From: an uncultured Enterobacteriaceae bacterium
Lineage (GTDB): Bacteria > Pseudomonadota > Gammaproteobacteria > Eutrophobiales > Eutrophobiaceae
Reading direction: 5' to 3'
DNA: 64,000 nucleotides
Assembly: GCA_964523895.1 (NCBI GenBank)
Contig: CAZGBJ010000001.1
Location: 93,633 to 157,632, forward strand
Shown: positions 28,921 through 64,000 of the stretch, in pieces
Position numbering within the stretch: position 1 is the stretch's first letter
Layout of the letters: every line of letters starts with the position of its first letter
Notes under the pieces: generated by a model
What the model saw: the letters and a program-made list of their open reading frames with translations, nothing else
The model's database searches: none
Told to the model about the DNA's origin: nothing
Made by a program: the position numbers and the translations under genes

Positions 28921-29029
28921 AATAATAATAAATGTATCGTTACTGAAGTTTCAGCAAAATAAATATATTTCTAAAAATATTTTTTTAGAGCTGTTTTTTA
29001 CGTGACCAACCAAGCCACCGAGAATATTC

Positions 29030-29908: not shown

Positions 29909-29946
29909 AGACCATCCACCTGCAAAATGAATCGAATAGCTTCTTA

Positions 29947-30552: not shown

Positions 30553-30595
30553 TTAAGTAGCTATATTCATGAAAAGAATGAATAATTAATTCTAT

Positions 30596-31369: not shown

Positions 31370-31566
31370 ATAAGAAATCACTATGCCCAACATGCGAAAA
31401 AAAGACGGAACTTAACAATTCCAATTCATATCGCCCTTTTTGTTCTAAACGTTGCAAACTAATCGATCTTGGCCAATGGGCTGACGAAAGTTATTCAATA
31501 TCCGAAACAACTGTCACTGATAACAATATTGATTCTGATTCTTACAAAAATATTGAGATTAGTTAG
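31366..31566 (+). CDS. yacG: DNA gyrase inhibitor YacG (zinc ribbon)
   Basis: CPTCEKK...[17 protein letters not shown] matches E. coli YacG. Confidence 0.85.
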
Positions 31567-31598
31567 AAAAAATAGTGCTTATATACCCGTGATACCGC

Positions 31599-32543: not shown

Positions 32544-32552
32544 TTAGGAAAA

Positions 32553-33773
32553 CTAGGTCCGATATTCTGCATTTATAGTAATGTATTCATGTGATAAATC
32601 TGTTGTCCATATTTCTTCCTGACAATTACCTCTATCAAGCCTGATTGATAACGTTATTTCACTCTGACTCATTACCGTTTTCCCTTTAGCTTCAGTATAT
32701 GTTGCGCAACGCTGTCCATTCTCAATAATACACACGTCATCAAGGCAGATATCTACTTTATTTATATCTAAATCATCAATGCCTGAGTTTCCTATCGCTG
32801 CAAGAATCCTTCCCCAATTTGGATCAGATGCAGTAAATGCAGTTTTGACTAAAGGTGACTCTGCAATTTTATATGCCACAGATAAACATTCTTCCGCATT
32901 CTTTCCTCCGTTTACTTCTATAGATATAAATTTTGTCGCGCCTTCACCATCTCTGACGATTGCTTGTGCTAGCTCACGACAAATATTTATCATTGCATTT
33001 TCAAAATCTATATAGCCATCATTATTACAACTATCGATTAATGAGTTACTCGCTTTACCCGTAGCCATAATAACACATGCATCATTTGTTGATGTATCAC
33101 CATCAATTGTAATTCTATTAAAACTCTTTTCTACCGCATTTAATAAAATTTTATCTAGAATGTTTTTATTTATATTCGCATCTGTTGCTATAAACGAAAG
33201 CATCGTTGCCATATCAGGCTTTATCATGCCCGCCCCTTTCACAATGCCAGTAATATTAACCATTTTCCCATCTATACTAAGTTGGCTTGATATTGCTTTA
33301 GGAATTGTATCAGTCGTCATTATTGCTTTTGCGGTATCTAGCCAATTATCATCAGATAAGTTTGTTAGCAAACCCGGTAATGCATTGTTTATTTTTTCTA
33401 CAGGTAAATCCTCGCCAATTACGCCTGTCGAAAAAGGAAGAACTTCCATTTCTTTACAAGCTGCTATATCAGCTAAAGTTTTACAGGTATTTTTCGCATT
33501 TAACATTCCCTGCTTGCCTGTTCCGGCATTTGCATTACCTGCATTTATTAAACAATAACGTGGCTTGGCATCATTCAAATTATTTTTTGCTACTTCAACT
33601 GGAGCAGCACAAAACAGATTTTTTGTAAAAACAGCTGAAACAGCACTGCCTTCAACAAGTTCTATCAGTGCCAAATCATTTCTTTTTTCTGCATAGATAT
33701 TTGCTGACGTCACTGAAAGGCGAACACCTTCTATAGGTATAAGTGATGAGGGAAATTCTAAACCAACTGACAT
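32553..33773 (-). CDS. argJ: Bifunctional glutamate N-acetyltransferase/ornithine acetyltransferase ArgJ
   Basis: Autocleavage site ATML (DMATMLSFIATDA). 406 aa. Confidence 0.9.
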   Translation of the reverse strand: MSVGLEFPSSLIPIEGVRLSVTSANIYAEKRNDLALIELVEGSAVSAVFTKNLFCAAPVEVAKNNLNDAKPRYCLINAGNANAGTGKQGMLNAKNTCKTLADIAACKEMEVLPFSTGVIGEDLPVEKINNALPGLLTNLSDDNWLDTAKAIMTTDTIPKAISSQLSIDGKMVNITGIVKGAGMIKPDMATMLSFIATDANINKNILDKILLNAVEKSFNRITIDGDTSTNDACVIMATGKASNSLIDSCNNDGYIDFENAMINICRELAQAIVRDGEGATKFISIEVNGGKNAEECLSVAYKIAESPLVKTAFTASDPNWGRILAAIGNSGIDDLDINKVDICLDDVCIIENGQRCATYTEAKGKTVMSQSEITLSIRLDRGNCQEEIWTTDLSHEYITINAEYRT

Positions 33774-33800
33774 TTATTCAGCCTGCTTCAATAATGGTAG

Positions 33801-36500
33801 TTAAACTAATTTCCCGTGGCATTGCTTATACTTCTTACCTGAACCACACGGGCATGGCTCATTACGTCCTATTTTTGGCTTATTACGTACAAATGGTTTA
33901 TCAGCAGAAGATGCTTGTTCAGGTGAATCAGGATTTAAGCTATTTGGTGCAGAAGCATGGCTAAAATTCATATTTTGCTCGTGCTCTTGATTCTCAGCTG
34001 CTTCAACGTCTTTTTCAGTCCTTATACTTACTTTAGAAAGAAAAACAATCACATCATGCTTTATGTTTTCAAGCATTTGTACAAACAATTCAAATGCTTC
34101 ACGTTTATACTCCTGTTTGGGGTTTTTTGCCGCGAAGCCTCTAAGATGTATGCCTTGTCTAAGATGATCCATATTTATGAGATGTTCTTTCCAATGTCTA
34201 TCCAGTACATCAAGCATAATTTGCTTTTCAATACGCCTCATTAATTCAGGCGTGATTACATCTTCTTTATCCTTTACTACCTTCTCCATGGCTGCATGAA
34301 GTTTTTCACGTAAACTTTCTTCATGTAATGATTTGTCCTCCTTGAGCCATAAACCTATATCAACAGATAAATCAAATTCATGCTGAAATGCCTCTTTTAA
34401 TCCATCTATATCCCACAATTCATCCATACTGCCACGAGGAATAAACGTATCAATAACAGCATCAATAACATCAAAACGCATTGCATTTACTTCTTCAGCA
34501 ACTGTGTCTCCATCAAGCAAATCATTTCTTTGCTCGTAGACAACTTTTCTCTGATCATTTGCTACATCATCAAAATCCAGTAAGTGTTTACGAATATCAA
34601 AGTTATGCGCTTCAACCTTGCGCTGTGCATTTTCTATTGCGCGAGTTACCAGTTTAGACTCAATAGCCTCACCTTCATCCATGCCCAGCTTCTGCATAAT
34701 TGAAGAAATACGATCTGAAGCAAAGATTCGCATTAGATTATCTTCCAAAGAAAGATAAAAACGACTTGAACCAGGATCTCCCTGACGTCCTGATCGACCA
34801 CGAAGTTGATTATCTATTCGTCGTGACTCATGCCGTTCTGTACCTATAATGTGTAAACCGCCACTATCCAGAACTTGTTGATGACGTTCAGCCCAATCCT
34901 CATTAATTTTATCAATTTGTTTTTGATCAGGATCCTTTAATGAATTAATTTCTGCCTCAAAATTACCACCCAGTACAATATCTGTACCTCGACCCGCCAT
35001 ATTCGTAGCTATGGTAATTGAACCTGACTTACCAGCTTGAGCAATAATTTCTGCTTCTTTTTGATGGAATTTGGCATTTAATACCTGATGTTTAATATTT
35101 TCCTTATTAAGGACATTAGATAGATACTCTGATACTTCAATTGATGCCGTACCAACTAATATTGGTTGGCCTTTTGATTGACGATCTTTTATATCCTCAA
35201 TCATTGCTGCATATTTTTCTTTTGCAGTCAGAAAGATAACGTCACTCTGATCATCTCTAATCATTGTCATATTAGTCGGAATAACAACGACTTCCAGATC
35301 ATATATTGATTGAAACTCAAATGCCTCTGTATCGGCAGTCCCTGTCATACCCGAGAGCTTTGAATATAAACGAAAATAATTTTGATATGTTATAGATGCA
35401 AGCGTCTGGTTTTCATTCTGTATCGATACACCTTCCTTAGCTTCTATCGCTTGATGTAATCCTTCAGACCAACGACGACCTTGCATTGTACGCCCGGTGA
35501 ATTCATCAACAATGACAATTTCGTTATCCTTAACGATATAATCAACATCAATTTTAAATAAATGGTGTGCTCTTAATGCGGCATTCAAATGATGCAAAAC
35601 AATAATATTAGCAGGATCGTACAAAGTCTGACCTTCTTTAAGAATATTATGTTCTGTTAATAATGTCTCAATATGGTCATGTCCATCTTCGGTAAAGTAA
35701 GCCTGCTTCGACTTTTCATCTAGAGTAAAATCGCCAGGTCCATCTTCAATTTTTTGAACTACTAACTTGGGAATTAATGCATTTATCGAAATATATAACT
35801 CTGATTTATCGTCCACCATTCCTGAAATAACCAGTGGTGTTCTGGCTTCATCAATAAGAATTGAATCTACTTCATCAACAATAGCGAAATTTAGACCTCT
35901 CTGAACACGACCTTCTTTAGCAAACGCCATGTTGTCACGCAAATAATCAAAACCAAACTCATTATTTGTGCCATAGGTAATATCACATTGGTATGCAACT
36001 TTTCTCTCTTCCGTTGACAGGCCACTAACAATCACGCCTGTACTTAGTCCTAGAAAACTGTATATCTGACCCATCCACTCAGAATCACGTTTAGCCAGAT
36101 AATCATTAACTGTTATGACATGAACACCTAAACCTGACAAGGCATTTAAATATGCCGCTAAAGTTGCAACCAGCGTTTTACCTTCACCTGTGCGCATTTC
36201 AGCGATACTGCCGTTATGCAATACTATCCCGCCAATGAGTTGCACATCAAAATGACGCATACTTAAAACACGTTGCCCTGCTTCTCTAACCAGGGCAAAT
36301 GCTTCTGGTAATATGCTATCGAGATTTTCGCCTTCTTTAATTCTTTCTTTTAACTGATTTGTTTTATCAGGAAAATCCTCATCATTTAATAATTTCAATT
36401 CATCTTCAAGAGGATTTATTTTCGTTACTACCTTGCTTAGTTTTTTGACTACCCGATCATTTCGAGAACCAAATATTTTTTTTACTAAATCTATAATCAT
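33801..36500 (-). CDS. secA: Preprotein translocase ATPase SecA
   Basis: 899 aa with DEAD motor motifs and the C-terminal zinc finger [14 protein letters not shown]. Confidence 0.97.
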
Positions 36501-36583
36501 ACTAGTTTATATTTTGTTTATTACGCAATATGTCACGTACTATTACGCAAAATGAATTTTAATCGGTAAGAAAATTAGAGGTA

Positions 36584-37516
36584 TTATTGCAAAGAAATAT
36601 ATTTTTTTGGATTGACTGCTTTTCCATTGTTGACCACTTCGAAATGAACATGCGGTCCGGTTGCTCTTCCTGATGAACCCATCAGAGCAATAACCTCACC
36701 TTGTTCAACCTTTTGGCCAACTACAACCAGATTTTTCTTATTATGTGCATAACGAGTTTGGTAACCATTGCCGTGGTTTACCTCGACCATTTTACCATAG
36801 CCATAGCGAACACCTGACCAGGTAACAATTCCGGAAGCAACTGTAAGTACAGGAGAACCTGTCTTGCCCGCATAATCAACACCTCCATGAAATTCCATTT
36901 TTCCTGTCATTGGATCAGTTCGCATACCAAACAACGAAGATACCCAGCCAGTCTTTGTTGGCCGACCTGTTGGAATAGTCTGATTCTGTAACGTTCTATC
37001 AATTAACATTGACTCCATCGCTGCCATTTTTTCTGCACGATCCTGTATTTTTAGATTTAACTGATCCAATGCTTCAAGAAAGTCACTGACTTCCATCGAA
37101 CCGTGCAAGTTAATTGGCTGTGGACCGCCTAAACCAGGAGCAGATGTAATATCAAATTCAATTTCATTAAGATCAGCCATATCAGCCAGGCGAGAACCAA
37201 GTGCATCCAAACGCATAACATGAGCCTGTAATTTACTTAATCTTGCTGCTAAAGCATCAAGATTTTTTTCAGCATTTTCTTGCGCTTGGTCAAGCATTTG
37301 TTGCTGGACTTCTATCTCTTTACTCCAGAGAGGTGCCGTTTGGCTATATAAAGTTTTAAATGAACCGCGTGTTAAATTTAGAGCGTAAATACTACCTGCA
37401 TGGAAAACCAATAAACCACCAACAATACTAATGATCATACACACACATAGAGTTACCGGCCCGAAAGTGAAGGACTGGCTCTTCTTTTTAGATTTTGATA
37501 TTAAAAATAATTGCAT
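36584..37516 (-). CDS. M23 family metallopeptidase with N-terminal TM and coiled-coil
   Basis: HGGVDYAG...HxH (GPHVHFEV) LytM-type active-site residues are intact. A coiled coil precedes the catalytic domain. Confidence 0.8.
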   Translation of the reverse strand: MQLFLISKSKKKSQSFTFGPVTLCVCMIISIVGGLLVFHAGSIYALNLTRGSFKTLYSQTAPLWSKEIEVQQQMLDQAQENAEKNLDALAARLSKLQAHVMRLDALGSRLADMADLNEIEFDITSAPGLGGPQPINLHGSMEVSDFLEALDQLNLKIQDRAEKMAAMESMLIDRTLQNQTIPTGRPTKTGWVSSLFGMRTDPMTGKMEFHGGVDYAGKTGSPVLTVASGIVTWSGVRYGYGKMVEVNHGNGYQTRYAHNKKNLVVVGQKVEQGEVIALMGSSGRATGPHVHFEVVNNGKAVNPKKYISLQ

Positions 37517-50337: not shown

Positions 50338-51696
50338 TTATTTCCGCTCCTCTGTTAATGCATTAACTATGCGTTCCATCTGCATAGCACGCGAACCTTT
50401 GACCAGAATAGTTGTATCTTTATCAAGATAATTCATCAAAGCCTCATTTAATTCATCATGAGATTCAAAATAATAGGAATCAGAACCAAAGCCTTGTAAA
50501 GCACTAATGCTTAATTCGCCTAGAGCAAATAATTTGTCTATACCTAACTGCTTGGCTAATACACCCGCATTTTTATGAAGTTCTATCTCTGTACTACCTA
50601 ACTCACCCATATCTGCAAGAACAAGATATTTAGAACCCTTGTAATGGCTTAGCACTTTTAACGCAGCCTCAAGTGATGTTGGGTTGGCGTTATAAGTATC
50701 ATCAATAATCCGGGCGCCTTGTTTGCCTGCTTTTATTTGCAAACGTCCTTTAACTGGCAACATATTTTCAAGGCCGTTTTTGATTGTTGTTAAAGAAATA
50801 TCCAGACTCAAACAACAAGCAGTAGCTGCAAGTGCATTCATAACATTATGCTCACCACAAAGAGGCAACATAATTTCAATAGATGCTTGCGCGCAGATTA
50901 ATTCAAATTGAACCGATGAACTTTCTGCTGAGACCTTAATATTTTTTGCACGAACATCAGCATGTTCAGATTCAATTCCAAATCCAAGTTGATTTAAATG
51001 TTCACACGACTCTTTCCAATAAGTTGCATACTCATCATCAACATTTATTATTGCCGTACCTGAAGATTGCAAACCTGAATATATTTCTGCTTTTGCTTTA
51101 GCGACACCATCGATACTGCCAAAACCTTCAAGATGTGCAGGCGCGCATTGTGTAATCACCGCAACATTTGGACGGGCTATTGCACTTAACCATTCAATTT
51201 CACCTGGATGGTTGGCACCCATTTCAACTACTGCATACTGATGCTTTTTATCGAGACCAAATAAAGTTAATGGAACACCAATGTCGTTGTTAAGATTTTC
51301 CGACGTTGCATGCACTTCAGAAATTTTAGATAAAATACCACTGACCATCTCTTTGACTGTGGTCTTGCCATTACTACCGGTTATGGCAATCAACGGAATG
51401 CTTATTTCTTCACGCCAGGATTTTGCTAACAGACCCATTGCCTTGCGTGCTTCTTTTACTTGTAATACAGGTTTTGTGTTTCTTGCTTCTCGCTCAAGCA
51501 TTAAAGAAGATGCACCGTTTTCTTCAGCTACAGACACATAATCATGGCCATCAAAATGTTCGCCTGTTAATGCAATAAATAAATTTCCATCTTTAATCGT
51601 GCGACTATCAGTACTACAGCCGGAAAAGATAATATCTTCACCAATAAAATTTGAATTGGTGGCGGCAGCTGCTTTTGAAAGTGACATACTAATCAT
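50338..51696 (-). CDS. murF: UDP-MurNAc-tripeptide--D-alanyl-D-alanine ligase MurF
   Basis: Mur ligase with GSNGKTT motif. Confidence 0.9.
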   Translation of the reverse strand: MISMSLSKAAAATNSNFIGEDIIFSGCSTDSRTIKDGNLFIALTGEHFDGHDYVSVAEENGASSLMLEREARNTKPVLQVKEARKAMGLLAKSWREEISIPLIAITGSNGKTTVKEMVSGILSKISEVHATSENLNNDIGVPLTLFGLDKKHQYAVVEMGANHPGEIEWLSAIARPNVAVITQCAPAHLEGFGSIDGVAKAKAEIYSGLQSSGTAIINVDDEYATYWKESCEHLNQLGFGIESEHADVRAKNIKVSAESSSVQFELICAQASIEIMLPLCGEHNVMNALAATACCLSLDISLTTIKNGLENMLPVKGRLQIKAGKQGARIIDDTYNANPTSLEAALKVLSHYKGSKYLVLADMGELGSTEIELHKNAGVLAKQLGIDKLFALGELSISALQGFGSDSYYFESHDELNEALMNYLDKDTTILVKGSRAMQMERIVNALTEERK

Positions 51697-53201
51697 GAAT
51701 CACCTCCCATTAAGCGCCTGGCTAATTCCCGATCACTAAATGGAGACAGTGTTGAACCAATCTGTTGCGTTGTTTCGTGGCCTTTACCAGCAATTAAAAC
51801 CACATCATCTTTACCGGCACATAGAAAGGTATTTATGATTGCATCAGAGCGATCATATTTAATCACTACCTGAGATTTTTCTTTAATCCCTTCAAGAATA
51901 TTTTCAACAATTTTTTCTTCTGATTCTGTACGCGGATTATCATTCGTTAAAATAATCTGGTCAGATAAGGATTCTGCAATTGCTCCCATTTGCGATCGTT
52001 TGCCTACATCACGATCACCACCACAACCAAAGACACAATACAATTTCCCGGCGCAATAAGAACGCAATGTAGTTAATACTTTTTCAAGTGCGTCAGGAGT
52101 ATGTGCGTAGTCAACTACCAGCAATGGTTTTGACTCAGAAGAAAAATATTCCATCCGCCCAGGTATGCCAGTAAATTGAGATAGTGCCGCAGCTACTTTT
52201 TCAGGCTGAAAACCTGACACACATAATGTTGAAAATGCGGCGAGGATATTCTCTACATTAAACTTCCCCAGCAGGCCTGTTTGTGTAGTGACTTGTCCCC
52301 ACGGACTTTGTATTGTCAGATTTGTTTTAAAATGATCCGTTTCAATTTTTTCACAAGAAATAAACGAAACATCTTTTCTATTTGATTCAAGTTGATTTAT
52401 TTTTGTAGAGTACGAAAAAATATTTAACTCTGTCGGCAATATATCTATCAGTTGAATACCATAAGCATCATCAACATTAACAATGGCGTGTTTAAGACCC
52501 GATGTTTGAAACAGTTGAAATTTCGCATCAGCATAATCTTCATACGTACTATGATAATCAAGGTGGTCGCGACTCAAATTGGTAAACACGCCGATATTAA
52601 ATTCGGTTCCACCTACTCTGCCCTGATCGAGTGCATGAGAAGATACTTCCATCACGACAGAATCAACTTCATCTCTCCAGTTAGAAAACAGAGAATGTAA
52701 CTTAACTGGATCGGGCGTCGTTATATTGGCTGATTCAATTTTTCCAAATCGACCATTACCTATTGTTCCAATAACAGCGGACTGCTTTCCAAGCATAAAT
52801 AAAACTTCGGCGATCATGTACGAGACTGTTGTCTTGCCATTAGTTCCCGTAACGCCAATAACCTGCATTTCTTTTGATGGTTCATCATAAAATCGACTTA
52901 TTATGATGCCGGTCTGCTTACGTAAATTAGATACTTTAACTACTGTTACTGCTTGTGATTGCAGATTAACTTCTTCATCTTCGTCAATTGCAATTGCAAC
53001 AGCACCTGCACGAATTGCATCATCTATATAATCAATGCCATTAACTTGTGTTCCACGGTATGCCATAAATAGATCGCCTGATTCAACTTCTCTACTATCG
53101 ATAGCAACACCTGTAATATCAATTGAAACATTAACTTCAGCCAGGCCACTTAATAGTTCAGCTAGTGATTTAGAATAATTCAATTTCTCAATCGTCATCA
53201 T
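51693..53201 (-). CDS. murE: UDP-MurNAc-L-Ala-D-Glu--2,6-diaminopimelate ligase MurE
   Basis: Mur ligase with GTNGKTT motif. The DNPR motif near the C-terminus indicates meso-DAP specificity. Confidence 0.9.
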   Translation of the reverse strand: MMTIEKLNYSKSLAELLSGLAEVNVSIDITGVAIDSREVESGDLFMAYRGTQVNGIDYIDDAIRAGAVAIAIDEDEEVNLQSQAVTVVKVSNLRKQTGIIISRFYDEPSKEMQVIGVTGTNGKTTVSYMIAEVLFMLGKQSAVIGTIGNGRFGKIESANITTPDPVKLHSLFSNWRDEVDSVVMEVSSHALDQGRVGGTEFNIGVFTNLSRDHLDYHSTYEDYADAKFQLFQTSGLKHAIVNVDDAYGIQLIDILPTELNIFSYSTKINQLESNRKDVSFISCEKIETDHFKTNLTIQSPWGQVTTQTGLLGKFNVENILAAFSTLCVSGFQPEKVAAALSQFTGIPGRMEYFSSESKPLLVVDYAHTPDALEKVLTTLRSYCAGKLYCVFGCGGDRDVGKRSQMGAIAESLSDQIILTNDNPRTESEEKIVENILEGIKEKSQVVIKYDRSDAIINTFLCAGKDDVVLIAGKGHETTQQIGSTLSPFSDRELARRLMGGDS

Positions 53202-53207
53202 CCTGTA

Positions 53208-53313
53208 AACCTCAGTTGACCGGCAAAATTGCCTAATTGGCTATCACCTAAATTAATATAACGTTCTATTTTGAAATACATATTCGTGTTCTTGTGCCGG
53301 TCAACTGAGGTTT
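53208..53313. repeat. Perfect 19-bp inverted repeat (AAACCTCAGTTGACCGGCA ... TGCCGGTCAACTGAGGTTT) flanking a 68-bp AT-rich spacer in the ftsI-murE intergenic region
   Basis: Read directly: arm 1 at 53208-53226 and arm 2 at 53295-53313, exact reverse complements. With the flanking bases the arms extend to ~24 bp with one mismatch. The 3' arm on the mRNA ends 6 nt before the murE AUG and covers its RBS. Confidence 0.7.
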
Positions 53314-53324
53314 CCAGGATCATA

Positions 53325-55058
53325 TTATTCAAACCCTTGTAACCGATCAGGTTGGTGGCTATTCGCCATAATTGGGCTGGTAATTGCGGGTAGATCATCA
53401 GGCGGGATGTTCAAAATTCTAAACGCACCTTCCATCACTCTGGAAAAAACTGGCGCTGCAACAACACCGCCATAATGACTATCTCCTCTAGGTTCATCAA
53501 TGAGTATCACCATTGCAAACCGAGGTTCACTTGCAGGAGCAATACCTGCAAATAAGGACAGGTAACGATCATCGGAGTAACCACCATGTACAGATTTATG
53601 CACCGTGCCTGTTTTACCTATAACACGATAACCCCTTATTGCAGCACGTTTACCCGTACCCTTTGCAGACACCACCGTTTCCAACATCTTTCTCACTTGT
53701 CTTGCAATATTTTCAGGTAATACGCGTTTACCTGAAACAGAGTCGCTAACCTTGAGAAATGAAATTGGTAACATCACTCCACCCGTTGCTAAAACGGAAT
53801 ACGCTTGTGCAAGTTGTAGAGGTGTTACAGATAAGCCATAACCAAATGACATGGTTGCCATTTCAAAATCTGACCAGGTATTATATGGGCTTAATATTCC
53901 TGAAGACTCACCGGGAAAAGCACTACCCGTTGGCTGGCCAAAACCAAAACGCGATAATACATCCCAATATTTTTCCGGTTCCAGTGATAGTGCAATCTTG
54001 CTGGCACCAACATTACTTGATTTGGTAATAACAGTTGAAACATCGATACTTCCGTAGTTATGTATATCCCGGATGGTATGCTCACCAACCTTAAAATAGC
54101 CCGGCGATGTATTTATTGCCGTATGTGGATTATAAATTCCAGATTCCAGTCCCGCCGAGATAGTAAAGGGCTTCATTGTTGAACCGGGCTCAAACACATC
54201 GGTGACTGCACGATTACGATAAAAATGACTTTTTAAAGTTTTACGATTATTCGGGTTATAAGATGGTTGTCCAACCATCGCCATTACTTCACCTGTTCTA
54301 ACATCTAACATCACCAATGAACCACCCTTTGCCCGATGATATTTAACAGCAGCAGCCAATTCTCGGTAAGCCAAATACTGAACACGCCGATCTATACTCA
54401 GCGTCAATTTTTTCCCTGGTTCAGAAGATTCGATGCTTTCAATGTTTTCAACGACTCGATTTAAACGATCTTTCAAAACTCGTTTTTTTCCTGTTTTGCC
54501 ACTCAGCCATTGGTCATAGGCCAATTCCATACCTTCCTGACCTTGATCATCAATATTGGTAAAACCAATAATGTGAGAAGTCACTTCAGCAGCCGGGTAA
54601 TAACGCTTGTATTCGCGTTGCGTTGATACCCCTCTTATACCTAATTTTTGTATTTCCTTAACCAGGCCTGGATTCGCATGACGTTTTAAATAAACAAACT
54701 CACGACTAATTCGATCACGCAAAATTTCGTGAAGGTCTGCTACTGTCATTCCCATGACCTTTGCCAAGTCAGGAAAACGTTCAACATCTTCAAATACTTT
54801 TCGTGGCGTCACCCATATCGAATCTACCGGTGTACTCATGGCTAATGGTTCATCATTTCGATCAACAATCACACCGCGATGTGAAGGAATATCAACCACA
54901 CGAATTGATCTTGCATCGCCATGCTCTTTAAGGAATTCATTATTTAAAAGCTGCAGATAAACGGCTCGTGATGAGAGCACCGCCATGCCACACAGAAATA
55001 ACCCTAACACCAGCCAACGGCGTAATGGATATTGTGCTTGTATAGCTCGTAATTTCAT
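53325..55058 (-). CDS. ftsI: Peptidoglycan D,D-transpeptidase FtsI (PBP3)
   Basis: N-terminal TM, then SxxK (STMKP), SxN and KTG motifs. Confidence 0.9.
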   Translation of the reverse strand: MKLRAIQAQYPLRRWLVLGLFLCGMAVLSSRAVYLQLLNNEFLKEHGDARSIRVVDIPSHRGVIVDRNDEPLAMSTPVDSIWVTPRKVFEDVERFPDLAKVMGMTVADLHEILRDRISREFVYLKRHANPGLVKEIQKLGIRGVSTQREYKRYYPAAEVTSHIIGFTNIDDQGQEGMELAYDQWLSGKTGKKRVLKDRLNRVVENIESIESSEPGKKLTLSIDRRVQYLAYRELAAAVKYHRAKGGSLVMLDVRTGEVMAMVGQPSYNPNNRKTLKSHFYRNRAVTDVFEPGSTMKPFTISAGLESGIYNPHTAINTSPGYFKVGEHTIRDIHNYGSIDVSTVITKSSNVGASKIALSLEPEKYWDVLSRFGFGQPTGSAFPGESSGILSPYNTWSDFEMATMSFGYGLSVTPLQLAQAYSVLATGGVMLPISFLKVSDSVSGKRVLPENIARQVRKMLETVVSAKGTGKRAAIRGYRVIGKTGTVHKSVHGGYSDDRYLSLFAGIAPASEPRFAMVILIDEPRGDSHYGGVVAAPVFSRVMEGAFRILNIPPDDLPAITSPIMANSHQPDRLQGFE

Positions 55059-57836: not shown

Positions 57837-57980
57837 GCTGTGCCCTCTTTAAGAATAATTTCTTGGATTAGAATAAATGTTTAATTTTTAAAACGATACA
57901 ACAATATAGCAAGCATCATAATTGTTCATTCTTTAAACATCTTTTTGCCATTATGTTTCGAAAATAGTAAATAAAAAAAG

Positions 57981-58316
57981 AGTCGGCCGATAAGCCGGGT
58001 TCTGTCGTGGACAATCATTCATCTGGGATGCACATCACTATGCACCTCAAGCGACCTACCCGGAAACAGTGCGGGCCGCACCATCGTTTCCCTATTTGGT
58101 CTTGCTCCAGGTGGGGTTTACCCTGCCACTGTTATTGCTAACAGAGCGGTGCGCTCTTACCGCACCATTTCACCCTTACCTGCCGAAACAGGCGGTATAT
58201 TTTCTGTGGCACTTTCCATCGGCTCACGCCGCCCAGATGTTATCTGGCACCTCGCCCTATGGAGCCCGGACTTTCCTCTATTGAAATACATCAACAGCGA
58301 TTGCCTGGCCAACTCT
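57981..58316 (-). ncRNA. rnpB: RNase P RNA (type A, M1 RNA)
   Basis: The minus strand contains the universally conserved P4 elements GGAAAGTCCGGGCTCCATAGGGC... and ...ACAGAACCCGGCTTATCGGCCGACT at the 3' end, followed by a T-run. Internal conserved segments AGGGTGAAATGGTGCGGTAAGAGCGCACC and CAAGACCAAATAGGG match E. coli M1 RNA. Ends are approximate to ~10 nt. Confidence 0.88.
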
Positions 58317-58395: not shown

Positions 58396-58686
58396 TTAAT
58401 GAGTTATGACGCGCTCCATTTTCTGATACAGCAGCTTATTTTTGTTCTCTAAATGCCAAAGATTCAGATTGGTCTGCATGCTTAACCAAAATCGCGGAGT
58501 ACTGCCCAATACACGACTTAAGCGAATAGCAATATCTTCGGTCACGTCACCGCGCTCATTAACCACTTTCGACACCGTATTTCTGGCAATACCACACCGT
58601 CGAGCTAATTCACTCACAGTAAGACCTGTCTCTGGCAAAATGACGTTGCGAATTAACGCACCAGGATGAGAAGGTTTACGAGCCAT
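58396..58686 (-). CDS. higA: HigA antitoxin (XRE-family HTH)
   Basis: 96 aa with an HTH (LTVSELARRCGIARNTVSKVVN). Its ATG overlaps the higB stop (TAATG). Confidence 0.8.
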   Translation of the reverse strand: MARKPSHPGALIRNVILPETGLTVSELARRCGIARNTVSKVVNERGDVTEDIAIRLSRVLGSTPRFWLSMQTNLNLWHLENKNKLLYQKMERVITH

Positions 58687-58973
58687 TAGTGATAATCCTC
58701 TAAATTAATATCGACAACGTCGTTGCCATCCATGCACCATGTAATTCGCCAGTTTCCAGTCACGCGAACACTGTACTCACCTTTACGCTGACCTTTTAAT
58801 CCATGAAAATAAAGACCTGAAATATCCATTTCTTCAGCAAATTCAATCGTATCTAATGCATCCAAAATCACAATTAATCGCCCAGCAATTTCTGCACGAA
58901 TACCGCGTTTATCTGTATAACGCGGATCTTCGAAGAAACGCTTCAATCCCTTGTGGCGAAACTTTTTGATCAT
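58686..58973 (-). CDS. higB: HigB toxin (RelE/ParE superfamily mRNA interferase)
   Basis: MIKKFRHKGLKRFFEDPRYTD...GNWRITWCMDGNDVVDINLEDYH matches the HigB plasmid-maintenance killer family. The toxin gene precedes the antitoxin, as in hig loci. Confidence 0.8.
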   Translation of the reverse strand: MIKKFRHKGLKRFFEDPRYTDKRGIRAEIAGRLIVILDALDTIEFAEEMDISGLYFHGLKGQRKGEYSVRVTGNWRITWCMDGNDVVDINLEDYH

Positions 58974-59050: not shown

Positions 59051-59884
59051 TTATAATTTACGTGATCGACCTTTTTCGTATTGTGGTGTATTACGTTCCT
59101 TTTGCTCATTTTGTAACTTTAAATAGTTTTCCCAACGGCGTTGCTCAAGCTCACCGGACTCTAAAGCATTTTTAACCCCGCATTTTATTTCAGTGTCATG
59201 TTGGCAGTTATTAAATTTACATTGAGAGATGAATTGCATGATGTCATCAAAGGTATCTTCAAGCCCGCTTTCACAATCACTTAGCTGTAATTCTCTAATT
59301 CCTGGGGTATCAATTAATACGCCACCATCATTAAGCAAATGTAATGATCGTGATGTTGTTGTATGTTGGCCTTTACCATCTTCTGCGCTGACTTCTGCGG
59401 TCAGTTGTTCTGCGTCCGTTAAACTATTGATCAATGTTGATTTACCAACACCAGAAGAACCAACAAGTGCAATAGTATGACCCTCTGTACATAAAGATCG
59501 TAACGACTCTAAACTTGCTTTATCTTTCGCATTAACACATTCAACACTAAGATCTTTTTGCAAACTCTGTACTTCTTCTTTATATGACTCACTATCATCT
59601 ATTAGATCAATCCTGGTTAAAACAACGACGGGGTTAATTCCAGCTTCATTGGCTAAGGTTAAATAGCGTTCTATGCGTGAAACATTAAAATCCTGATCAC
59701 ACGACATGACGATAAATAAGGTATCAACATTAGCAGCAATCGTTTGATCATTAGTCCGTTTACCCGCAGCCTTACGTATCAACACTGTTACCCGATCAAG
59801 TATTCGAAGTGGTCGTTCGCCTCCATTCGGAATTAATATCCAATCTCCCACTGCAAACACTTTTGGATCACTAAAGACACCCAC
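59051..59884 (-). CDS. rsgA: Ribosome small-subunit-dependent GTPase A (RsgA/EngC); the annotated GTG start truncates the N-terminal OB domain
   Basis: G-motifs VGSSGVGKSTLINSL and DTPG, plus the C-terminal zinc finger CKFNNCQHDTEIKC. The open frame continues 53 codons upstream with conserved OB-fold sequence (ARISKIHRSHCIVW...) but has no ATG, GTG or TTG. Confidence 0.85.
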   Translation of the reverse strand: MGVFSDPKVFAVGDWILIPNGGERPLRILDRVTVLIRKAAGKRTNDQTIAANVDTLFIVMSCDQDFNVSRIERYLTLANEAGINPVVVLTRIDLIDDSESYKEEVQSLQKDLSVECVNAKDKASLESLRSLCTEGHTIALVGSSGVGKSTLINSLTDAEQLTAEVSAEDGKGQHTTTSRSLHLLNDGGVLIDTPGIRELQLSDCESGLEDTFDDIMQFISQCKFNNCQHDTEIKCGVKNALESGELEQRRWENYLKLQNEQKERNTPQYEKGRSRKL

Positions 59885-60202
59885 TTCGAAATCTTTTACT
59901 TCTTGACTACTCCAAACAATGCAATGACTACGATGAATTTTTGAAATACGAGCGGGATAGGATTGAGCCTCCTCTTCTGAAGTTAACTGATCAGAGAAGA
60001 ATGACTTCCAACCTAATTGAGATAATCTAAAAATAATAATTTCCTAAAGTCATTACGCTATGTGTTGTTAACTCTATATGTCTGCTTTCGGCTGCGTCGA
60101 TAAGTTGAAGTCGCTAGCTTTATTATTGCAATCCTTAAATCGGTCAGAAGTGGATATTAAGCAATAAATTATTCTCTATTCAAACTATATTATTTAATCC
60201 GT

Positions 60203-60400
60203 TTACAAATTATTAAATGTTGTTGGATCTAGGACCGCGAACATTCCACCAAAAAACATAGTAAACATGAATGCAAGTATGGTTAAAATTATCATCGCTG
60301 GAATAGATGCAATCGTTGCCTTAACCATAAATATAACCATTGACCAAAACGGCATTTTAATATCGACAATATTTACTTCATTTACTCTATATTCTTCCAT
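60203..60400 (-). CDS. Small hypothetical membrane protein (65 aa, two TM helices)
   Basis: Strong SD (AGGAGA, 6 nt before the ATG). Two hydrophobic helices. The overlapping plus-strand ORF 60267-60539 has no SD. Confidence 0.5.
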   Translation of the reverse strand: MEEYRVNEVNIVDIKMPFWSMVIFMVKATIASIPAMIILTILAFMFTMFFGGMFAVLDPTTFNNL

Positions 60401-60477
60401 ATTGATTCTCCTCTACATTTACTTTTTTATAAAGTTCGCTTTGGGTTGTGATTTCAACCAATTCTTAAAAGCAAACA

Positions 60478-61314
60478 TTATTCTTTTTGTCCTGGATCTA
60501 ATGCTAATTGATACACTTCGTTCTTCTTTTTTCCTGTAATATTTGCAGTTAAACCTGCGGCATCTTTCGGCGGTAACTTTTCCGAAAGAATTTGATTGAT
60601 TCGTAAGACTTCTTGATCATTTACCGATGTTTCTTGTGCGCCTTCGATGATCACAACAAACTCGCCTTTTATTTTTATCTCGCCGCTTTCGAGCTTTTCA
60701 TTAATCACTGCTAAATTATCGCAGACGATTTGTTCGAATTGTTTAGTGAGTTCTCTGGCGATAGTAACGCGTCTTTCTGTGCTAAATATTTCCTGCATGA
60801 TTTTTACTGATTCAACGATACGATGTGGTGCTTCGTAAAAAACCAGTGTTCGTGATTCATTTGTTAATTCTTGTAAACGTTTCTTACGTGCTTCACTTTT
60901 TGCAGGCAAATACCCTTCAAAAATAAATTTGTTTGTCGGTAAACCGGATGCGGACAAGGCGGCAATAATGGCAGAAGGGCCGGGGATAGGAACGACTTGA
61001 ATATTGTTGTCATGTGCTGCAACAACCAGTTTATAACCTGGGTCATTAATCAATGGTGTTCCGGCATCGGAGATTAGCGCAATTGATTTGCCAGCTAATA
61101 GTTGCTGTATCAATTGCGGTGTTACTTTTTCTTCATTATGTTCGTGGTATGCACAGGTTTTGGTTTTAATAGCAAACCTTTCCAGTATGGTTTTACTATG
61201 GCGCGTGTCTTCGGCAGCGATTAAATCCACCTGTTTTAAGATCTCAATGGCTCGCTCGCTGATGTCGCCTAAATTGCCGATTGGCGTTGCCACAATATAG
61301 AGTGATGCTTCCAT
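60478..61314 (-). CDS. rsmI: 16S rRNA 2'-O-methyltransferase RsmI (tetrapyrrole-methylase fold)
   Basis: LYIVATPIGNLGDISERAIEIL...AAEDTRHS matches RsmI. Confidence 0.9.
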   Translation of the reverse strand: MEASLYIVATPIGNLGDISERAIEILKQVDLIAAEDTRHSKTILERFAIKTKTCAYHEHNEEKVTPQLIQQLLAGKSIALISDAGTPLINDPGYKLVVAAHDNNIQVVPIPGPSAIIAALSASGLPTNKFIFEGYLPAKSEARKKRLQELTNESRTLVFYEAPHRIVESVKIMQEIFSTERRVTIARELTKQFEQIVCDNLAVINEKLESGEIKIKGEFVVIIEGAQETSVNDQEVLRINQILSEKLPPKDAAGLTANITGKKKNEVYQLALDPGQKE

Positions 61315-61408
61315 TCTTCTGTATATGAACCCTGTTTAAAAATAAATGTCGTAATTATCGCTGCAATGTACAATAGATACCCATGATACCTAGAAATACA
61401 TATTCATA

Positions 61409-63244
61409 GTGCGACTTTTAATCATTTTTCTTTTATCTCTGTCTTTATTATCTGGCTGCGGGCCTACGCGGTCGTCTAATCAACAATCTCAGGTCGATCC
61501 TGAGGAAAGTGCTCGCGTTTTAATGCAGTCTGGTGACTACTCTGCTGCTGCGCTAGAGTATTTAACTCTGGCTGAAAACGACAAAAATAACTCGGCGGTT
61601 TACCGCCTCAAAGCAGCAGCAGCCTATGTTGAAGCAGGGCAATATACTGAAGCGAATTTTATATTGAGCGAAACCACTATTCCTGAAGAAGACTCTGTAC
61701 AACAGTTGAGAATGCGTATTTTGAGTGCACGCCTTCAACTGGAATTTGGACAACCCGGCAATGCACTCAATCTACTAAATGAAATATCCGAGCTGGAAAT
61801 TCCACAAAGTCTGCAGATTACATACTACGACATACTTGCCCGAGCGTATCTGGCACACGGTGAATATATTAAAGCGGCGTCAGAACGTTTACGACTTTCA
61901 AATATTTTGAGGGCGCCAGGCGAAATAGATCAAAATAATCGTTCGCTTTGGAAAATTTTTGAGGCGATACCTGAATCTGAACTTGAAGAGTTGCGCTTTG
62001 TTGCGCCAGATGAATTAACAAGCTGGTTTGAGCTGGCATCGATTTATCAGGGCTACCGCTATCAACCTGCCAAATTAAAGAATGCGATTGATGGCTGGAT
62101 TCAACGTTATCCGGGACACCCCGCCTATTCAGTTATAACGCCGCAACTTATCAGTCAAAGTAGTGTGTTTGTTCAACGCCCTTCCAAAATTGGATTGTTG
62201 TTACCTTTATCGGGAAAGTACAAAAAGTCATCCACTGCCATACGCGATGGTTTTCTGGCCGCCTGGTATCTTGATACGCAAGAAAAATCAGAAATTAAAA
62301 TTTATGATGCGAATTCATTAAACATTATTGAAGTATACCGACAAGCTATTGAAGATGGTGTTGATTATGTTGTTGGTCCATTGGAAAAAGAAGCCGTTAA
62401 TCAATTGGCCGATTATGGTGAGCTTCCAGTGCAAGTACTCGCACTCAATCGCCAGGATTTAAAAAGCGAACAAGAACTTAATAAAAAATTAATGCAATTT
62501 GCGTTATCTCCGGAAGATGAAGCCATTCAAATTGCTGAAGCAGCAATGTCCGATGGTCATAGACTGGCATTAGTTATAACGCCAAATATCCCCTGGGGAG
62601 ATCGAATTGCAAATGCTTTTAAAACGCGTTGGTTAGAATTAGGTGGCGGCATTCTGGAGCACACTCACTTTGAAAGCAGTGCAAAGGATTTTGCAACGCC
62701 GGTTAAACAATTATTAAATATTGATAGCAGCGAACAACGTGGCAAAGATCTTCGGAGCAAACTTAATATAAAAATAAATACTGTGACGCGTCGCCGAGAA
62801 GATGCTGATTTTATTTTCAGCGCTGCTGTACCGGGTGATGCACGTCAATTGTTTCCACAGTTTCGTTTTCATCGCGCTGCTGATTTGCCTGTGTATTCAA
62901 CTTCACATGTTTTCACTGGTATTGTTGATAGCGCTAAAGATGCTGATCTGAATGGCGCGATGTTTATTGATATGCCATGGATACTGGATACATCACGACA
63001 ACTTTCAATCATTCAGGATGCGCTTAATCGAAATTGGGCACAGGAAAAATCACAATATCGTCGATTGTATGCATTGGGTATCGATGCTTATCATTTAATT
63101 CCTGAAATGGGTCGCCTCAGTCTTGAAGAAAATAGTGTTTTAAACGGTGAAACTGGTGATCTGTCTATTGGTTCTAATAATATTGTAAAGCGACAATTGC
63201 GCCGCGCTCAATTTGTCGAGGGGAAACCGAGCTTATTGAATTAG
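61409..63244 (+). CDS. lpoA: Penicillin-binding protein 1A activator LpoA (lipoprotein)
   Basis: Lipobox LLSGCG, N-terminal TPR domain and a C-terminal periplasmic-binding-protein-like domain. The rsmI/lpoA/yraN/diaA order matches E. coli and Pseudomonas. Confidence 0.85.
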   Translation: MRLLIIFLLSLSLLSGCGPTRSSNQQSQVDPEESARVLMQSGDYSAAALEYLTLAENDKNNSAVYRLKAAAAYVEAGQYTEANFILSETTIPEEDSVQQLRMRILSARLQLEFGQPGNALNLLNEISELEIPQSLQITYYDILARAYLAHGEYIKAASERLRLSNILRAPGEIDQNNRSLWKIFEAIPESELEELRFVAPDELTSWFELASIYQGYRYQPAKLKNAIDGWIQRYPGHPAYSVITPQLISQSSVFVQRPSKIGLLLPLSGKYKKSSTAIRDGFLAAWYLDTQEKSEIKIYDANSLNIIEVYRQAIEDGVDYVVGPLEKEAVNQLADYGELPVQVLALNRQDLKSEQELNKKLMQFALSPEDEAIQIAEAAMSDGHRLALVITPNIPWGDRIANAFKTRWLELGGGILEHTHFESSAKDFATPVKQLLNIDSSEQRGKDLRSKLNIKINTVTRRREDADFIFSAAVPGDARQLFPQFRFHRAADLPVYSTSHVFTGIVDSAKDADLNGAMFIDMPWILDTSRQLSIIQDALNRNWAQEKSQYRRLYALGIDAYHLIPEMGRLSLEENSVLNGETGDLSIGSNNIVKRQLRRAQFVEGKPSLLN

Positions 63245-63250
63245 ATCTTC

Positions 63251-63646
63251 ATGTCTCAGGAATTATCAAGGATGATAAAAAATACTAAAACGAGAAACCA
63301 TTCCGGCAAACAGGCAGAAGAGTTCGCTGCAAAATATCTTGCTAAACAAAATGTAAAAATAATTACTCGAAATTTTCACTGTCGATTTGGTGAAATCGAT
63401 CTCATTGGACTCGATCAGGAAATATTGCTTTTTGTTGAAGTTCGCTATCGAAAAAACGAGAGTTATTTAGCCGCTGTTGAAACCATTGATCGACATAAAT
63501 GTAAAAAAATTGTGACAACTAGCAAATACTATTTGAACAAACAGAGAAACTATCAATCTTACTTTTGTCGGTATGATGTTATTACCCTAACCGGAGAGCT
63601 TGATAGACCTGTAATCGAGTGGATTAAAAATGCATTTCAGGCATAA
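63251..63646 (+). CDS. yraN: YraN (UPF0102) endonuclease-like protein
   Basis: GEIDLIG...VEVRYR motif of the UPF0102 family. Confidence 0.8.
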   Translation: MSQELSRMIKNTKTRNHSGKQAEEFAAKYLAKQNVKIITRNFHCRFGEIDLIGLDQEILLFVEVRYRKNESYLAAVETIDRHKCKKIVTTSKYYLNKQRNYQSYFCRYDVITLTGELDRPVIEWIKNAFQA

Positions 63647-63672
63647 TATCGGCAGTTTTTTTATGGTATTAA

Positions 63673-64000
<328 letters not shown>

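What the first reader, a model, noticed from the sequence alone, without database searches (positions are those of the whole stretch)
53208..53313. Perfect 19-bp inverted repeat inserted between ftsI and murE, occluding the murE ribosome-binding site
In most dcw clusters ftsI and murE abut or overlap. Here a ~120-bp spacer carries exact reverse-complement arms AAACCTCAGTTGACCGGCA / TGCCGGTCAACTGAGGTTT, which extend to ~24 bp with one mismatch, around a 68-bp AT-rich loop. On the polycistronic mRNA the 3' arm ends 6 nt before the murE AUG and includes the AGG of its SD. Candidates are an RNase III processing site, a translational attenuator uncoupling murE from ftsI, a MITE-like insertion, or a palindromic protein-binding operator.
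Basis: seen in the sequence. Interest (0 to 1): 0.55.

Follow-up and report, generated by a model that had tools for sequence, protein, structure and literature searches.

The report
Truncated mobile element between ftsI and murE
The perfect inverted repeat between the cell-division genes ftsI and murE is the pair of ends of a small, internally deleted mobile DNA element that landed on the murE start codon, and it stays readable by ribosomes, which probably keeps murE expressed.

Summary
Arms 53207-53225 and 53295-53313 are a perfect 19-bp inverted repeat, 24 bp with one mismatch. It is the only long local inverted repeat in the 64-kb window, and the predicted RNA hairpin is about -54 kcal/mol (z = -8).

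It is not a murE-specific regulator. Seventeen related genomes have ftsI and murE overlapping with no spacer, including the five closest (MurE 75-89% identical).

The window carries a 119-bp insert (53201-53319) flanked by a duplicated TGA. Its first ~100 nt match (E = 2e-15) a dispersed 203-323-bp family with terminal inverted repeats and 3-bp TNA duplications. I found this family at 12 independent sites in uncultured marine Gammaproteobacteria, always oriented with the downstream gene. The window copy is a deletion derivative whose right arm is an inverted copy of its own left end.

Like most copies, it is open in one frame. A 41-codon ORF starts 1 nt after the ftsI stop and ends on a TGA overlapping the murE ATG. 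The element's last base rebuilds that ATG, and its right arm supplies GAGG 8 nt upstream.

The likely consequence (inferred, not shown) is a translational relay that melts the hairpin and preserves ftsI-murE coupling, as proposed for mycobacterial MIRUs. I classify it as a new member of a known kind, of moderate interest.

The parts
53201..53319 (-). 119-bp internally deleted MITE copy. It consists of the left ~95-100 nt of the family followed by an inverted copy of its own left ~24 nt.
   Evidence: Absent from 17 related genomes. A family nhmmer profile (positions 1-101) matches 53322..53222 at E = 1.8e-15. Boundaries come from the junction table.
53320..53322 (-). Left copy of the 3-bp target duplication TGA. 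Together with the preceding A (53323) it forms the ATG that starts the element ORF.
   Evidence: Junction table and direct reading of the sequence.
53198..53200 (-). Right copy of the target duplication TGA. It is the stop codon of the element ORF, and its TG are bases 2-3 of the murE ATG.
53295..53319 (-). Left terminal inverted repeat, which is the 5' arm on the mRNA (T-CCTGGAAACCTCAGTTGACCGGCA). It contains CCUC, which pairs with the murE Shine-Dalgarno sequence.
53201..53225 (-). Right arm, which is the 3' arm on the mRNA (TGCCGGTCAACTGAGGTTTACAGG-A). It is an inverted copy of the left end rather than the canonical right end. It carries GAGG (53213-53210) 8 nt before the murE AUG, and its last base (53201) is the A of that AUG.
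   Evidence: (canonical right ends read ...CGAGTCCAACTGAGGATTCTAGG).
53198..53323 (-). 41-codon relay ORF (MILETSVDRHKNTNMYFKIERYINLGDSQLGNFAGQLRFTG*). Its AUG lies 1 nt after the ftsI UAA, and its UGA overlaps the murE AUG (AUGA).
   Evidence: It has no Pfam or NCBIfam match. The frame is open in 7% of shuffles.
53325..55058 (-). ftsI (PBP3), the upstream gene of the junction.
   Evidence: NCBIfam NF011685, E = 7.8e-168.
51693..53201 (-). murE, the downstream gene. Its N-terminus MMTIEKLNYSKSLAE is collinear with that of relatives.
   Evidence: NCBIfam TIGR01085, E = 2.2e-161; N-termini compared.

Best explanation
The inverted repeat is the pair of ends of a non-autonomous transposon (a MITE) that inserted into the TGA of the ancestral ...TAAT-ATGATG... 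ftsI/murE junction and duplicated that TGA. The copy in the window is a 119-bp deletion derivative. It keeps the left ~95-100 nt of a 203-323-bp family, and its right arm is an inverted copy of its own left end. That is why the arms are perfect over 19 bp; one possible origin is template switching within a quasi-palindrome.

How it works (inferred). On the dcw mRNA the two arms form a ~30-bp helix that buries the murE Shine-Dalgarno sequence (GAGG, supplied by the right arm) and the murE AUG (rebuilt from the element's last base plus the TG of the duplicated TGA). The insertion is tolerated in this essential operon because the element is open in one frame:
- Ribosomes ending ftsI at UAA restart 1 nt downstream on the original murE AUG, which now sits on the left side of the insert.
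- They translate 41 codons through the hairpin and unwind it.
- They terminate on the UGA that overlaps the rebuilt murE AUG, where they or incoming ribosomes initiate murE.

The peptide itself is probably meaningless. The element acts as a ribosome relay that preserves ftsI-murE coupling and keeps the stretch translated.

Steps shown: the insertion, the target duplication, family membership, dispersal, the reading frame and the predicted helix. Steps inferred: translation of the ORF, the coupling, and mobilisation in trans by an IS5-superfamily-like DDE transposase.
For: Insertion:
- Twelve of 13 GTDB species with MurE 66-89% identical have ...GGGTTTGA(A/C)TGATGATGAC... with ftsI and murE overlapping. 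So do the 84% and 81% relatives.
- The window differs by a 119-bp insert flanked by TGA.
- The insert is identical in independent JGI and ENA assemblies, so it is not an assembly artefact.

Family:
- The ORF of the longer insert at the same site in L006 retrieved 29 small unannotated proteins, and a profile search retrieved 53 representative clusters, at least one of them (P0192) an unrelated low-complexity repeat protein.
- DNA copies were recovered at 12 independent junctions: ftsI|murE twice, cdsA|dxr, lpxB|rnhB, pmbA|moxR-like, sdhD-like|sdhA (not checked against gene calls), pabC-like|mltG, ABC permease|GldG-like, cpoB|queE and three others.
- Copies share ~17-nt terminal inverted repeats and 3-bp duplications: TGA, TAA or TCA, six perfect and the rest one base off.
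- Three copies lie on two contigs of one sample.
- The family profile matches the window at E = 1.8e-15.

Host tree: the window's sister (L003) and the next relatives are empty, while the filled sites L006 and L042 sit in another clade among empty ones.

Reading frame:
- Twelve of 14 copies have a length of 2 mod 3. All large length differences (-120, -36, +33, +51, +75) are multiples of 3.
- The ORF frame has 1-3 stops (1-2 in the 10 copies whose length is 2 mod 3) against 2-11 in the other five frames.
- Full-length copies are that open in at most 1-7% of shuffles.
- Substitutions show almost no codon-position bias (141/157/193; synonymous:non-synonymous 81:163), so the frame is kept open but no protein is conserved.

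Junction anatomy:
- In 6 of 13 listed copies the element's last base (A or T) plus the TG of the duplication forms the downstream ATG or TTG. In 11 of 13 the start lies within 6 nt of the element (one, L047, read from sequence rather than from gene calls).
- GAGGA in the right repeat lies 7-8 nt upstream of that start.

Structure: the helix is -53.5 kcal/mol, z = -8.4. The closing stem is kept with compensatory changes across the family.

Against: - No autonomous element or transposase with matching ends was found, so mobility rests on anatomy and on empty versus filled sites.
- Only one copy lies in the 64-kb window, and the copy number in this genome is unknown.
- On its own the window ORF is weak evidence: 40 open codons arise in 7% of shuffles.
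- The relay ORF's AUG sits at the base of the helix, with a poor SD spacing of about 10 nt.
- Some family copies are frameshifted (L047, L060, P0169), so an open frame is not obligatory.
- Most copies were found through called ORFs, which may bias towards open, gene-like copies.
- No expression data exist. Published library screens report that structure just downstream of a stop codon lowers coupling (PMC12548453).
Confidence: 0.6

Rival explanations
1. The hairpin is, or has become by exaptation, a dedicated post-transcriptional control element for murE. It could be a translational attenuator that lowers murE relative to ftsI, or an RNase III processing site that splits the dcw transcript, as shown for Correia elements in Neisseria.
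For: A near-continuous ~30-bp helix of -53.5 kcal/mol covers the SD and the AUG. Helices of that length are in the range RNase III uses (general knowledge). The 2024 MITE review describes RNase-mediated cleavage of Correia-containing mtrCDE transcripts (PMC10969869). The arms are perfect over 19 bp, which could reflect maintenance by selection.
Against: The element is absent from the five closest relatives and from 12 others, so the lineage does not need it. The same sequence family sits at unrelated junctions. The through-reading ORF argues for coupling rather than uncoupling. A recent origin explains the perfect arms equally well.
Confidence: 0.15
2. The 41-codon ORF (and the 69-109-aa ORFs of full-length copies) encodes a real small protein, and the inverted repeat is incidental to that gene.
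For: The frame is open in most copies. Gene callers annotate many of them as hypothetical proteins. The core translates to a recognisable consensus, AYSFDCTFFRLICLTAKALRR...LVGATEPEKRTLKRVQLRILG.
Against: There is almost no third-position excess, and the synonymous:non-synonymous ratio is 81:163. The conserved core coincides with a hairpin that varies by compensatory changes. Insertions and deletions are modular and hairpin-shaped. There is no Pfam or NCBIfam match. The window copy keeps only the least conserved N-terminal third. Terminal repeats and target duplications are features of DNA, not of a gene.
Confidence: 0.05
3. The palindrome is a DNA-level site: an operator for a dimeric regulator of the dcw cluster, or a cruciform or recombination site.
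For: It is a perfect 19-bp palindromic pair. Some MITEs carry protein-binding sites such as the IHF site in Correia elements (PMC10969869).
Against: The arms are 69 bp apart, which is not operator geometry. No promoter-like site lies in or next to the element on the coding strand. The element is absent from relatives. The sequence is explained as transposon ends.
Confidence: 0.03
4. The repeat is a metagenome assembly artefact, such as a fold-back chimera.
For: Perfect inverted repeats can arise from chimeric reads or from assembly-graph errors.
Against: The same 166 nt are 100% identical in a 168-kb JGI contig and in an independent ENA assembly. Ten contigs carry the same MurE protein, and the two shown carry the same 123-nt ftsI-murE gap. 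Homologous elements occupy the same site in other species.
Confidence: 0.01

Closest known systems
[quoted passage not shown] Chunjie, Nezha, Correia/CREE, ERIC
   Same: It is small (119 bp here, 203-323 bp full length) and has no transposase. It has terminal inverted repeats, a short target duplication, empty versus filled orthologous sites, dispersed copies, size variants caused by internal deletions and insertions, and a long stable stem-loop as RNA. Chunjie is also reported inside an operon without disturbing it (title cited in PMC10969869).
   Different: It shows no sequence similarity to anything in Rfam, in plasmids, phages or E. coli genomes, or in the MITE literature I could search. 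The duplication is 3 bp TNA, against TA for Correia (from memory) and 9 bp for Chunjie (PMC3184786). The strict orientation with the downstream gene and the position on start codons are not general MITE properties.
MIRUs (mycobacterial interspersed repetitive units)
   Same: The proposed mode of operation is the same. These are mobile intercistronic repeats, in the orientation of the genes, that land at start codons. An internal ORF overlaps the flanking stop and start codons and becomes coupled to the downstream gene at -4 nt, which minimises the effect on expression (PMC12548453; PMC3184786).
   Different: MIRUs are 40-100-bp units in Mycobacterium with tetranucleotide direct repeats and only imperfect terminal repeats (PMC3184786); from memory they often occur in tandem. 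The present family is gammaproteobacterial, occurs as single copies, has clear ~17-24-nt terminal repeats and TNA duplications, and is unrelated in sequence.
RPEs (Rickettsia palindromic elements)
   Same: They are palindromic mobile elements that are kept in frame and translated, without a conserved protein function of their own (PMC10969869).
   Different: RPEs sit inside host ORFs as in-frame fusions. This family sits between ORFs as a separate relay ORF, apart from one 10-codon C-terminal extension of lpxB in L041.
IS5-superfamily elements with 3-bp targets (IS1031 group; eukaryotic PIF/Harbinger and their Tourist MITEs)
   Same: The duplication is 3 bp of the form TNA (TGA, TAA, TCA). IS1031-group elements recognise three nucleotides (PMC2516522). 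PIF/Harbinger belongs to the same PHIS superfamily of DDE transposases, whose target duplications differ between groups (PMC4482050, abstract listed); that its own duplication is 3 bp (TWA/TAA) is from memory.
   Different: No transposase or matching IS ends were found, so the assignment is an inference from the duplication alone.

Membership tests
MITE | Short (<~500 bp) element without a transposase gene | tested here: met
   It is 119 bp in the window and 203-323 bp elsewhere. The only ORF has no Pfam or NCBIfam match.
MITE | Terminal inverted repeats | tested here: met
   The window has 24 bp with one mismatch. The family has ~17 nt, CCTAGAATCCTCAGTTG, at both ends, with paired changes.
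MITE | Target-site duplication, with empty orthologous sites | tested here: met
   TGA flanks the window copy. Six of 13 listed copies have perfect 3-bp duplications and the rest are one base off. Empty sites were seen in 17 related genomes. L007 gives the exact empty site for L006.
MITE | Multiple dispersed copies within a genome | tested here: inconclusive
   There are 12 independent loci across species, and three copies on two contigs of one sample. Only one copy lies in this 64-kb window, and the rest of this genome was not available.
MITE | A cognate autonomous IS with the same ends that supplies the transposase | not testable with these tools
   No transposase is present in any fetched locus. 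Viral and plasmid searches were negative.
MIRU | Mycobacterial 40-100-bp repeat units | tested here: not met
   The host is an uncultured gammaproteobacterium. The units are single, 119-323 bp, with clear terminal inverted repeats.
MIRU | An internal ORF, co-oriented with the flanking genes, that overlaps their stop and start codons | tested here: met
   The window ORF 53323-53198 has its AUG 1 nt after the ftsI UAA and its UGA overlapping the murE AUG. The same holds at most family sites. This is a functional resemblance only.
Correia element (CREE/NEMIS) | Neisseria element of ~104-157 bp (PMC3184786), with 26-bp terminal repeats, a TA duplication and an IHF site (the repeat length and the TA duplication from memory) | tested here: not met
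   The duplication is 3 bp TNA, the terminal sequence is different, and the host is different.
RNase III processing site | About two turns (~20 bp or more) of near-perfect double-stranded RNA in a transcribed region | tested here: met
   The prediction gives 18 continuous pairs plus 6+3 outer pairs. Structure is predicted only.
RNase III processing site | Demonstrated cleavage in the stem | not testable with these tools
   No transcript-end data are available.
Intrinsic terminator | GC-rich stem followed directly by a U-tract | tested here: not met
   No terminator-like site was found at the element on either strand. The 3' arm is followed by ACAGGAUGAUG.
Known structured RNA family (Rfam) | A covariance-model match at or near the gathering score | tested here: not met
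   Only noise-level matches were found for the window copy and for a full-length copy.

The most novel reading that the evidence does not exclude
The family may be a specialised 'operon-junction' MITE rather than an ordinary one. Its transposase would target T(G/A)A at overlapping stop/start codons (ATGA, GTGA, TAATG). The element would carry a portable cassette consisting of a stop-free frame, a GAGGA Shine-Dalgarno sequence in the right terminal repeat, and a terminal A or T that rebuilds the start codon with the duplicated TG. Such a cassette would let it colonise essential, translationally coupled operons (dcw, lpx, isoprenoid, sdh) without polarity. It would also make downstream translation strictly dependent on the relay ORF, because the terminal-repeat stem hides the new SD. 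On this reading the ftsI-murE ATGATG junction has been hit at least twice independently. This would be a proteobacterial, TIR-bearing counterpart of mycobacterial MIRUs, and a natural translational-coupling device.
Probability: 0.4. Interest if true: 0.6.

Novelty: new member of a known kind. Interest (0 to 1): 0.45.

Why it matters
For this window, the result turns an apparently purpose-built murE regulator into a datable, lineage-specific insertion, which removes a false lead.

More broadly, the family shows how a selfish element can sit on the start codon of an essential gene in the most conserved operon of the cell envelope. It does so by staying translatable and by rebuilding the Shine-Dalgarno sequence and the start codon. 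That supports the idea, so far described mainly for mycobacterial MIRUs, that translational coupling creates safe landing sites for mobile DNA.

The element is also a compact natural relay cassette that could be tested as a synthetic coupling part. Practically, its ORFs are annotated in databases as 'hypothetical proteins' and should be recognised as repeat-derived.

Tried and rejected
- Rfam at a permissive threshold on the window copy and on a full-length copy gave only noise.
- NCBIfam and Pfam gave no match for the 41-aa and 69-aa ORFs.
- Further copies in the window were sought by a 19-mer search with 3 mismatches, blastn with five family queries, a terminal-repeat search with 4 mismatches and an nhmmer profile. 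None was found.
- A metagenome pattern scan for the left end returned only 5 contigs. All were long forms at loci already known, or at the sdhD-like|sdhA junction. The window's own contig is evidently not in that collection.
- Viral contigs had no match to the conserved core. The 29 hits to the 15-mer are chance matches in unrelated GC-rich contexts.
- The plasmid and E. coli collections gave no match.
- An intrinsic terminator or an internal promoter was rejected.
- The conserved small-protein idea was rejected by the codon-position and synonymous/non-synonymous counts.
- A 5-bp duplication (ATGAT) fits the dcw copies but not the others. A 3-bp TNA duplication plus a complementary terminal A/T fits all copies.
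- Vertical inheritance of the window copy from the L006-type dcw insert was not supported. The window's left end is no closer to those copies (72-74%) than to the sdh copy (78%), and the host tree separates them. The sequence is too short to be decisive.
- A MAFFT alignment of filled against empty sites placed the gap at the end and was not used.
- The Chunjie paper itself is not held in the library.

Full report
OBSERVATION. The window carries ftsI (53325-55058) and murE (51693-53201) on the minus strand, identified by NCBIfam at E = 7.8e-168 and 2.2e-161. They are separated by 123 nt (53202-53324). Every other junction of the dcw cluster in the window is tight or overlapping.

The 19-mer AAACCTCAGTTGACCGGCA occurs at 53207-53225 (+) and 53295-53313 (-) and nowhere else, even with 3 mismatches. 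No shuffle produced a match. The repeat extends to 24 bp with one mismatch and to 32 nt at 91%. It is the only substantial local inverted repeat in 64 kb.

As RNA in the sense of the genes, the spacer folds into one long helix of -53.5 kcal/mol. Shuffles give -23.1 +/- 3.6, so z = -8.4. The helix contains GAGG (53213-53210), 8 nt upstream of the murE AUG, and most of the AUG itself.

IT IS AN INSERTION. The same MurE protein is found on ten contigs. The spacer is 100% identical in a 168-kb JGI contig and in an independent ENA assembly, so it is not an assembly artefact.

The organism is an uncultured marine gammaproteobacterium; related MAGs are labelled Thiotrichaceae or Gammaproteobacteria. 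Among 13 GTDB species whose MurE is 66-89% identical, 12 have no spacer. Their ftsI stop overlaps the murE start (...GGGTTTGA(A/C)TGATGATGAC...). Two further relatives, at 84% and 81%, are also empty.

In a MurE neighbour-joining tree the window is sister to the empty L003 and sits inside a clade of empty sites. By direct comparison the window differs by a 119-bp insert (53201-53319) flanked by a duplicated TGA (53320-53322 and 53198-53200).

IT BELONGS TO A DISPERSED FAMILY. One relative (L006) has a 272-bp insert at exactly the same position, with the same kind of ends and the same TGA duplication. L007 provides its precise empty site, GACTAATGATGACGG.

The ORF running through that insert retrieved 29 small unannotated proteins with modular insertions and deletions. 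A profile of them retrieved 53 representative clusters among 1.84 billion proteins, at least one of which (P0192) is an unrelated low-complexity repeat protein.

Fetching their contigs, plus a DNA pattern scan and blastn, gave copies at 12 independent junctions:
- ftsI|murE in the window
- ftsI|murE in the L006/L042/L046 group
- cdsA|dxr
- lpxB|rnhB
- pmbA|moxR-like
- sdhD-like|sdhA (gene names inferred from the sequence; no gene calls checked)
- pabC-like|mltG
- ABC permease|GldG-like
- cpoB|queE
- orf|orf
- orf|aminotransferase
- the leader of a rhodanese gene

Three of these copies lie on two contigs of one sample. All copies have ~17-nt terminal inverted repeats (consensus CCTAGAATCCTCAGTTG) preceded and followed by a complementary A/T. 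All have a 3-bp direct duplication of the form TNA: TGA, TAA or TCA, six perfect and the others one base off.

An nhmmer profile of the full-length copies matches the window at 53322..53222 with E = 1.8e-15. It matches the window's other arm only as an inverted left end.

No copy was found in Rfam, viral contigs, plasmids or E. coli genomes. By anatomy this is a MITE family. A 3-bp TNA target is what IS1031-group IS5 elements use; the IS1031 point rests on PMC2516522, and the similar 3-bp target of PIF/Harbinger elements is from memory. No transposase was found, so that link is inference.

THE WINDOW COPY IS A DERIVATIVE. Full-length copies are 203-323 bp, with 239 bp the commonest length. The window copy is 119 bp. 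It aligns with the first ~95-100 nt of the family and then goes straight into the right arm.

Canonical right ends read ...CGAGTCCAACTGAGGATTCTAGG and are complementary to the left end for only about 17 nt. The window's right arm reads TGCCGGTCAACTGAGGTTTACAGG. That is the exact complement of its own left end, including ACCGGCA beyond the canonical repeat. The perfect 19-bp palindrome therefore comes from a left end copied in inverted orientation. Template switching within a quasi-palindrome, or a similar repair event, would produce this. It does not indicate a designed hairpin.

The left part is no closer to the other dcw copies (72-74%) than to the sdh copy (78%). Together with the host tree, this favours an independent hit on the same TGA, although the sequence is short.

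READING FRAME AND JUNCTION ANATOMY. All 12 sites have the element in the orientation of the downstream gene.
- In 6 of 13 listed copies the last base of the element (A or T) plus the TG of the duplicated TGA forms the downstream ATG or TTG.
- In 11 of 13 the start lies within 6 nt of the element end (for L047 this was read directly from the sequence, without gene calls).
- GAGGA or GAGG in the right repeat lies 7-8 nt upstream of that start.

Twelve of 14 copies have a length of 2 mod 3. That is the condition for an ORF starting on the xTG|A of the left junction to end on the right-hand duplication. The large length differences (-120, -36, +33, +51, +75) are all multiples of three. The ORF frame holds 1-3 stops (1-2 in the copies whose length is 2 mod 3) against 2-11 in each of the other five frames. 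Full-length copies are that open in at most 1-7% of shuffles, and the window's 40 codons in 7%.

Yet substitutions are nearly even over codon positions (141/157/193), and single-difference codons split 81 synonymous to 163 non-synonymous. The conserved core also coincides with an internal hairpin that varies by compensatory changes. The frame is therefore kept open while no protein is conserved.

In the window the ORF is 41 codons (53323-53198). Its AUG lies 1 nt after the ftsI UAA and its UGA overlaps the murE AUG.

MECHANISM (INFERRED). The ancestral junction was translationally coupled. After insertion, the old murE AUG and its upstream AAGGG stayed on the left and now start the element ORF. 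The proposed sequence of events is:
- Ribosomes finishing ftsI restart on that AUG.
- They translate through the helix and unwind it.
- They terminate on the UGA that overlaps the rebuilt murE AUG, next to the SD brought by the right arm.

This preserves coupling and keeps the stretch translated, which should also avoid Rho-dependent polarity. Both the RNA-unfolding and the re-initiation models of coupling are established in general. [quoted passage not shown]

Several caveats apply. There are no expression data. The ORF's own AUG lies at the base of the helix. Some family copies are frameshifted. Many copies were found through ORF calls.

I put the identity as a truncated MITE at about 0.9 and the relay mechanism at about 0.5.

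RIVALS. A dedicated murE attenuator or RNase III site is possible as a side effect; Correia elements are cleaved in transcripts (PMC10969869). The absence of the element from all close relatives shows that it is not a conserved control element. A functional small protein, a DNA operator, an intrinsic terminator and an assembly artefact are all poorly supported.

VERDICT. The 'uncoupling' reading is probably inverted. The element is a new, apparently undescribed family of a known kind (MITE), with a MIRU-like way of living inside operons. Interest is moderate. The most novel reading not excluded is that the family is specialised for overlapping stop/start junctions and has hit the ftsI-murE junction at least twice.

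Noticed in passing
window 57975-58316 (-): This is the bacterial RNase P RNA (class A), at 347.6 bits. It lies upstream of the dcw cluster, between the YtoQ-like/Sel1 genes and a toxin-antitoxin pair.
   Followed up: partly
window 58396-58973 (-): A HigB-like toxin (58686-58973, PF05015, E = 1.5e-16) and an HTH antitoxin (58396-58686) sit between rsgA (59051-59884) and rnpB. The relative L042 has only a 475-nt gap with no called genes at the equivalent place, so this looks like a lineage-specific toxin-antitoxin insertion.
   Followed up: partly
L041 9969-9997: The lpxB reading frame runs 29 nt into the left end of the element and stops at the element's internal TAA. The MITE has therefore given LpxB a ~10-residue C-terminal extension.
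   Followed up: partly
L006 2229-2500, L041 860-1098 and other full-length copies: The whole full-length element is a long quasi-palindrome. Profile positions 103-244 match the reverse strand of each copy at E = 1e-9 to 1e-14. An internal hairpin shows compensatory changes such as GGACTT/AAGTCC versus AGCC/GGCT. Hairpin-shaped modules of 33, 51 and 75 nt come and go between copies.
   Followed up: partly
L043 5233-8472 (-): A UvrD-like helicase gene of 1079 aa has weak Hint/intein-splicing Pfam hits, which suggests an intein-containing helicase next to one of the element copies.
   Followed up: no
L047 1718-1734: A lone sequence resembling a terminal repeat of the family (CTATAAACCTCAATTGA, 3 mismatches) lies about 700 nt upstream of the full copy. 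It could be a relic end or chance.
   Followed up: no
window 28000-37000 and 60000-64000: G+C drops to 0.35-0.36 around 30-37 kb. GC skew changes sign near 30 kb and again near 61-62 kb, following the changes in gene orientation.
   Followed up: no
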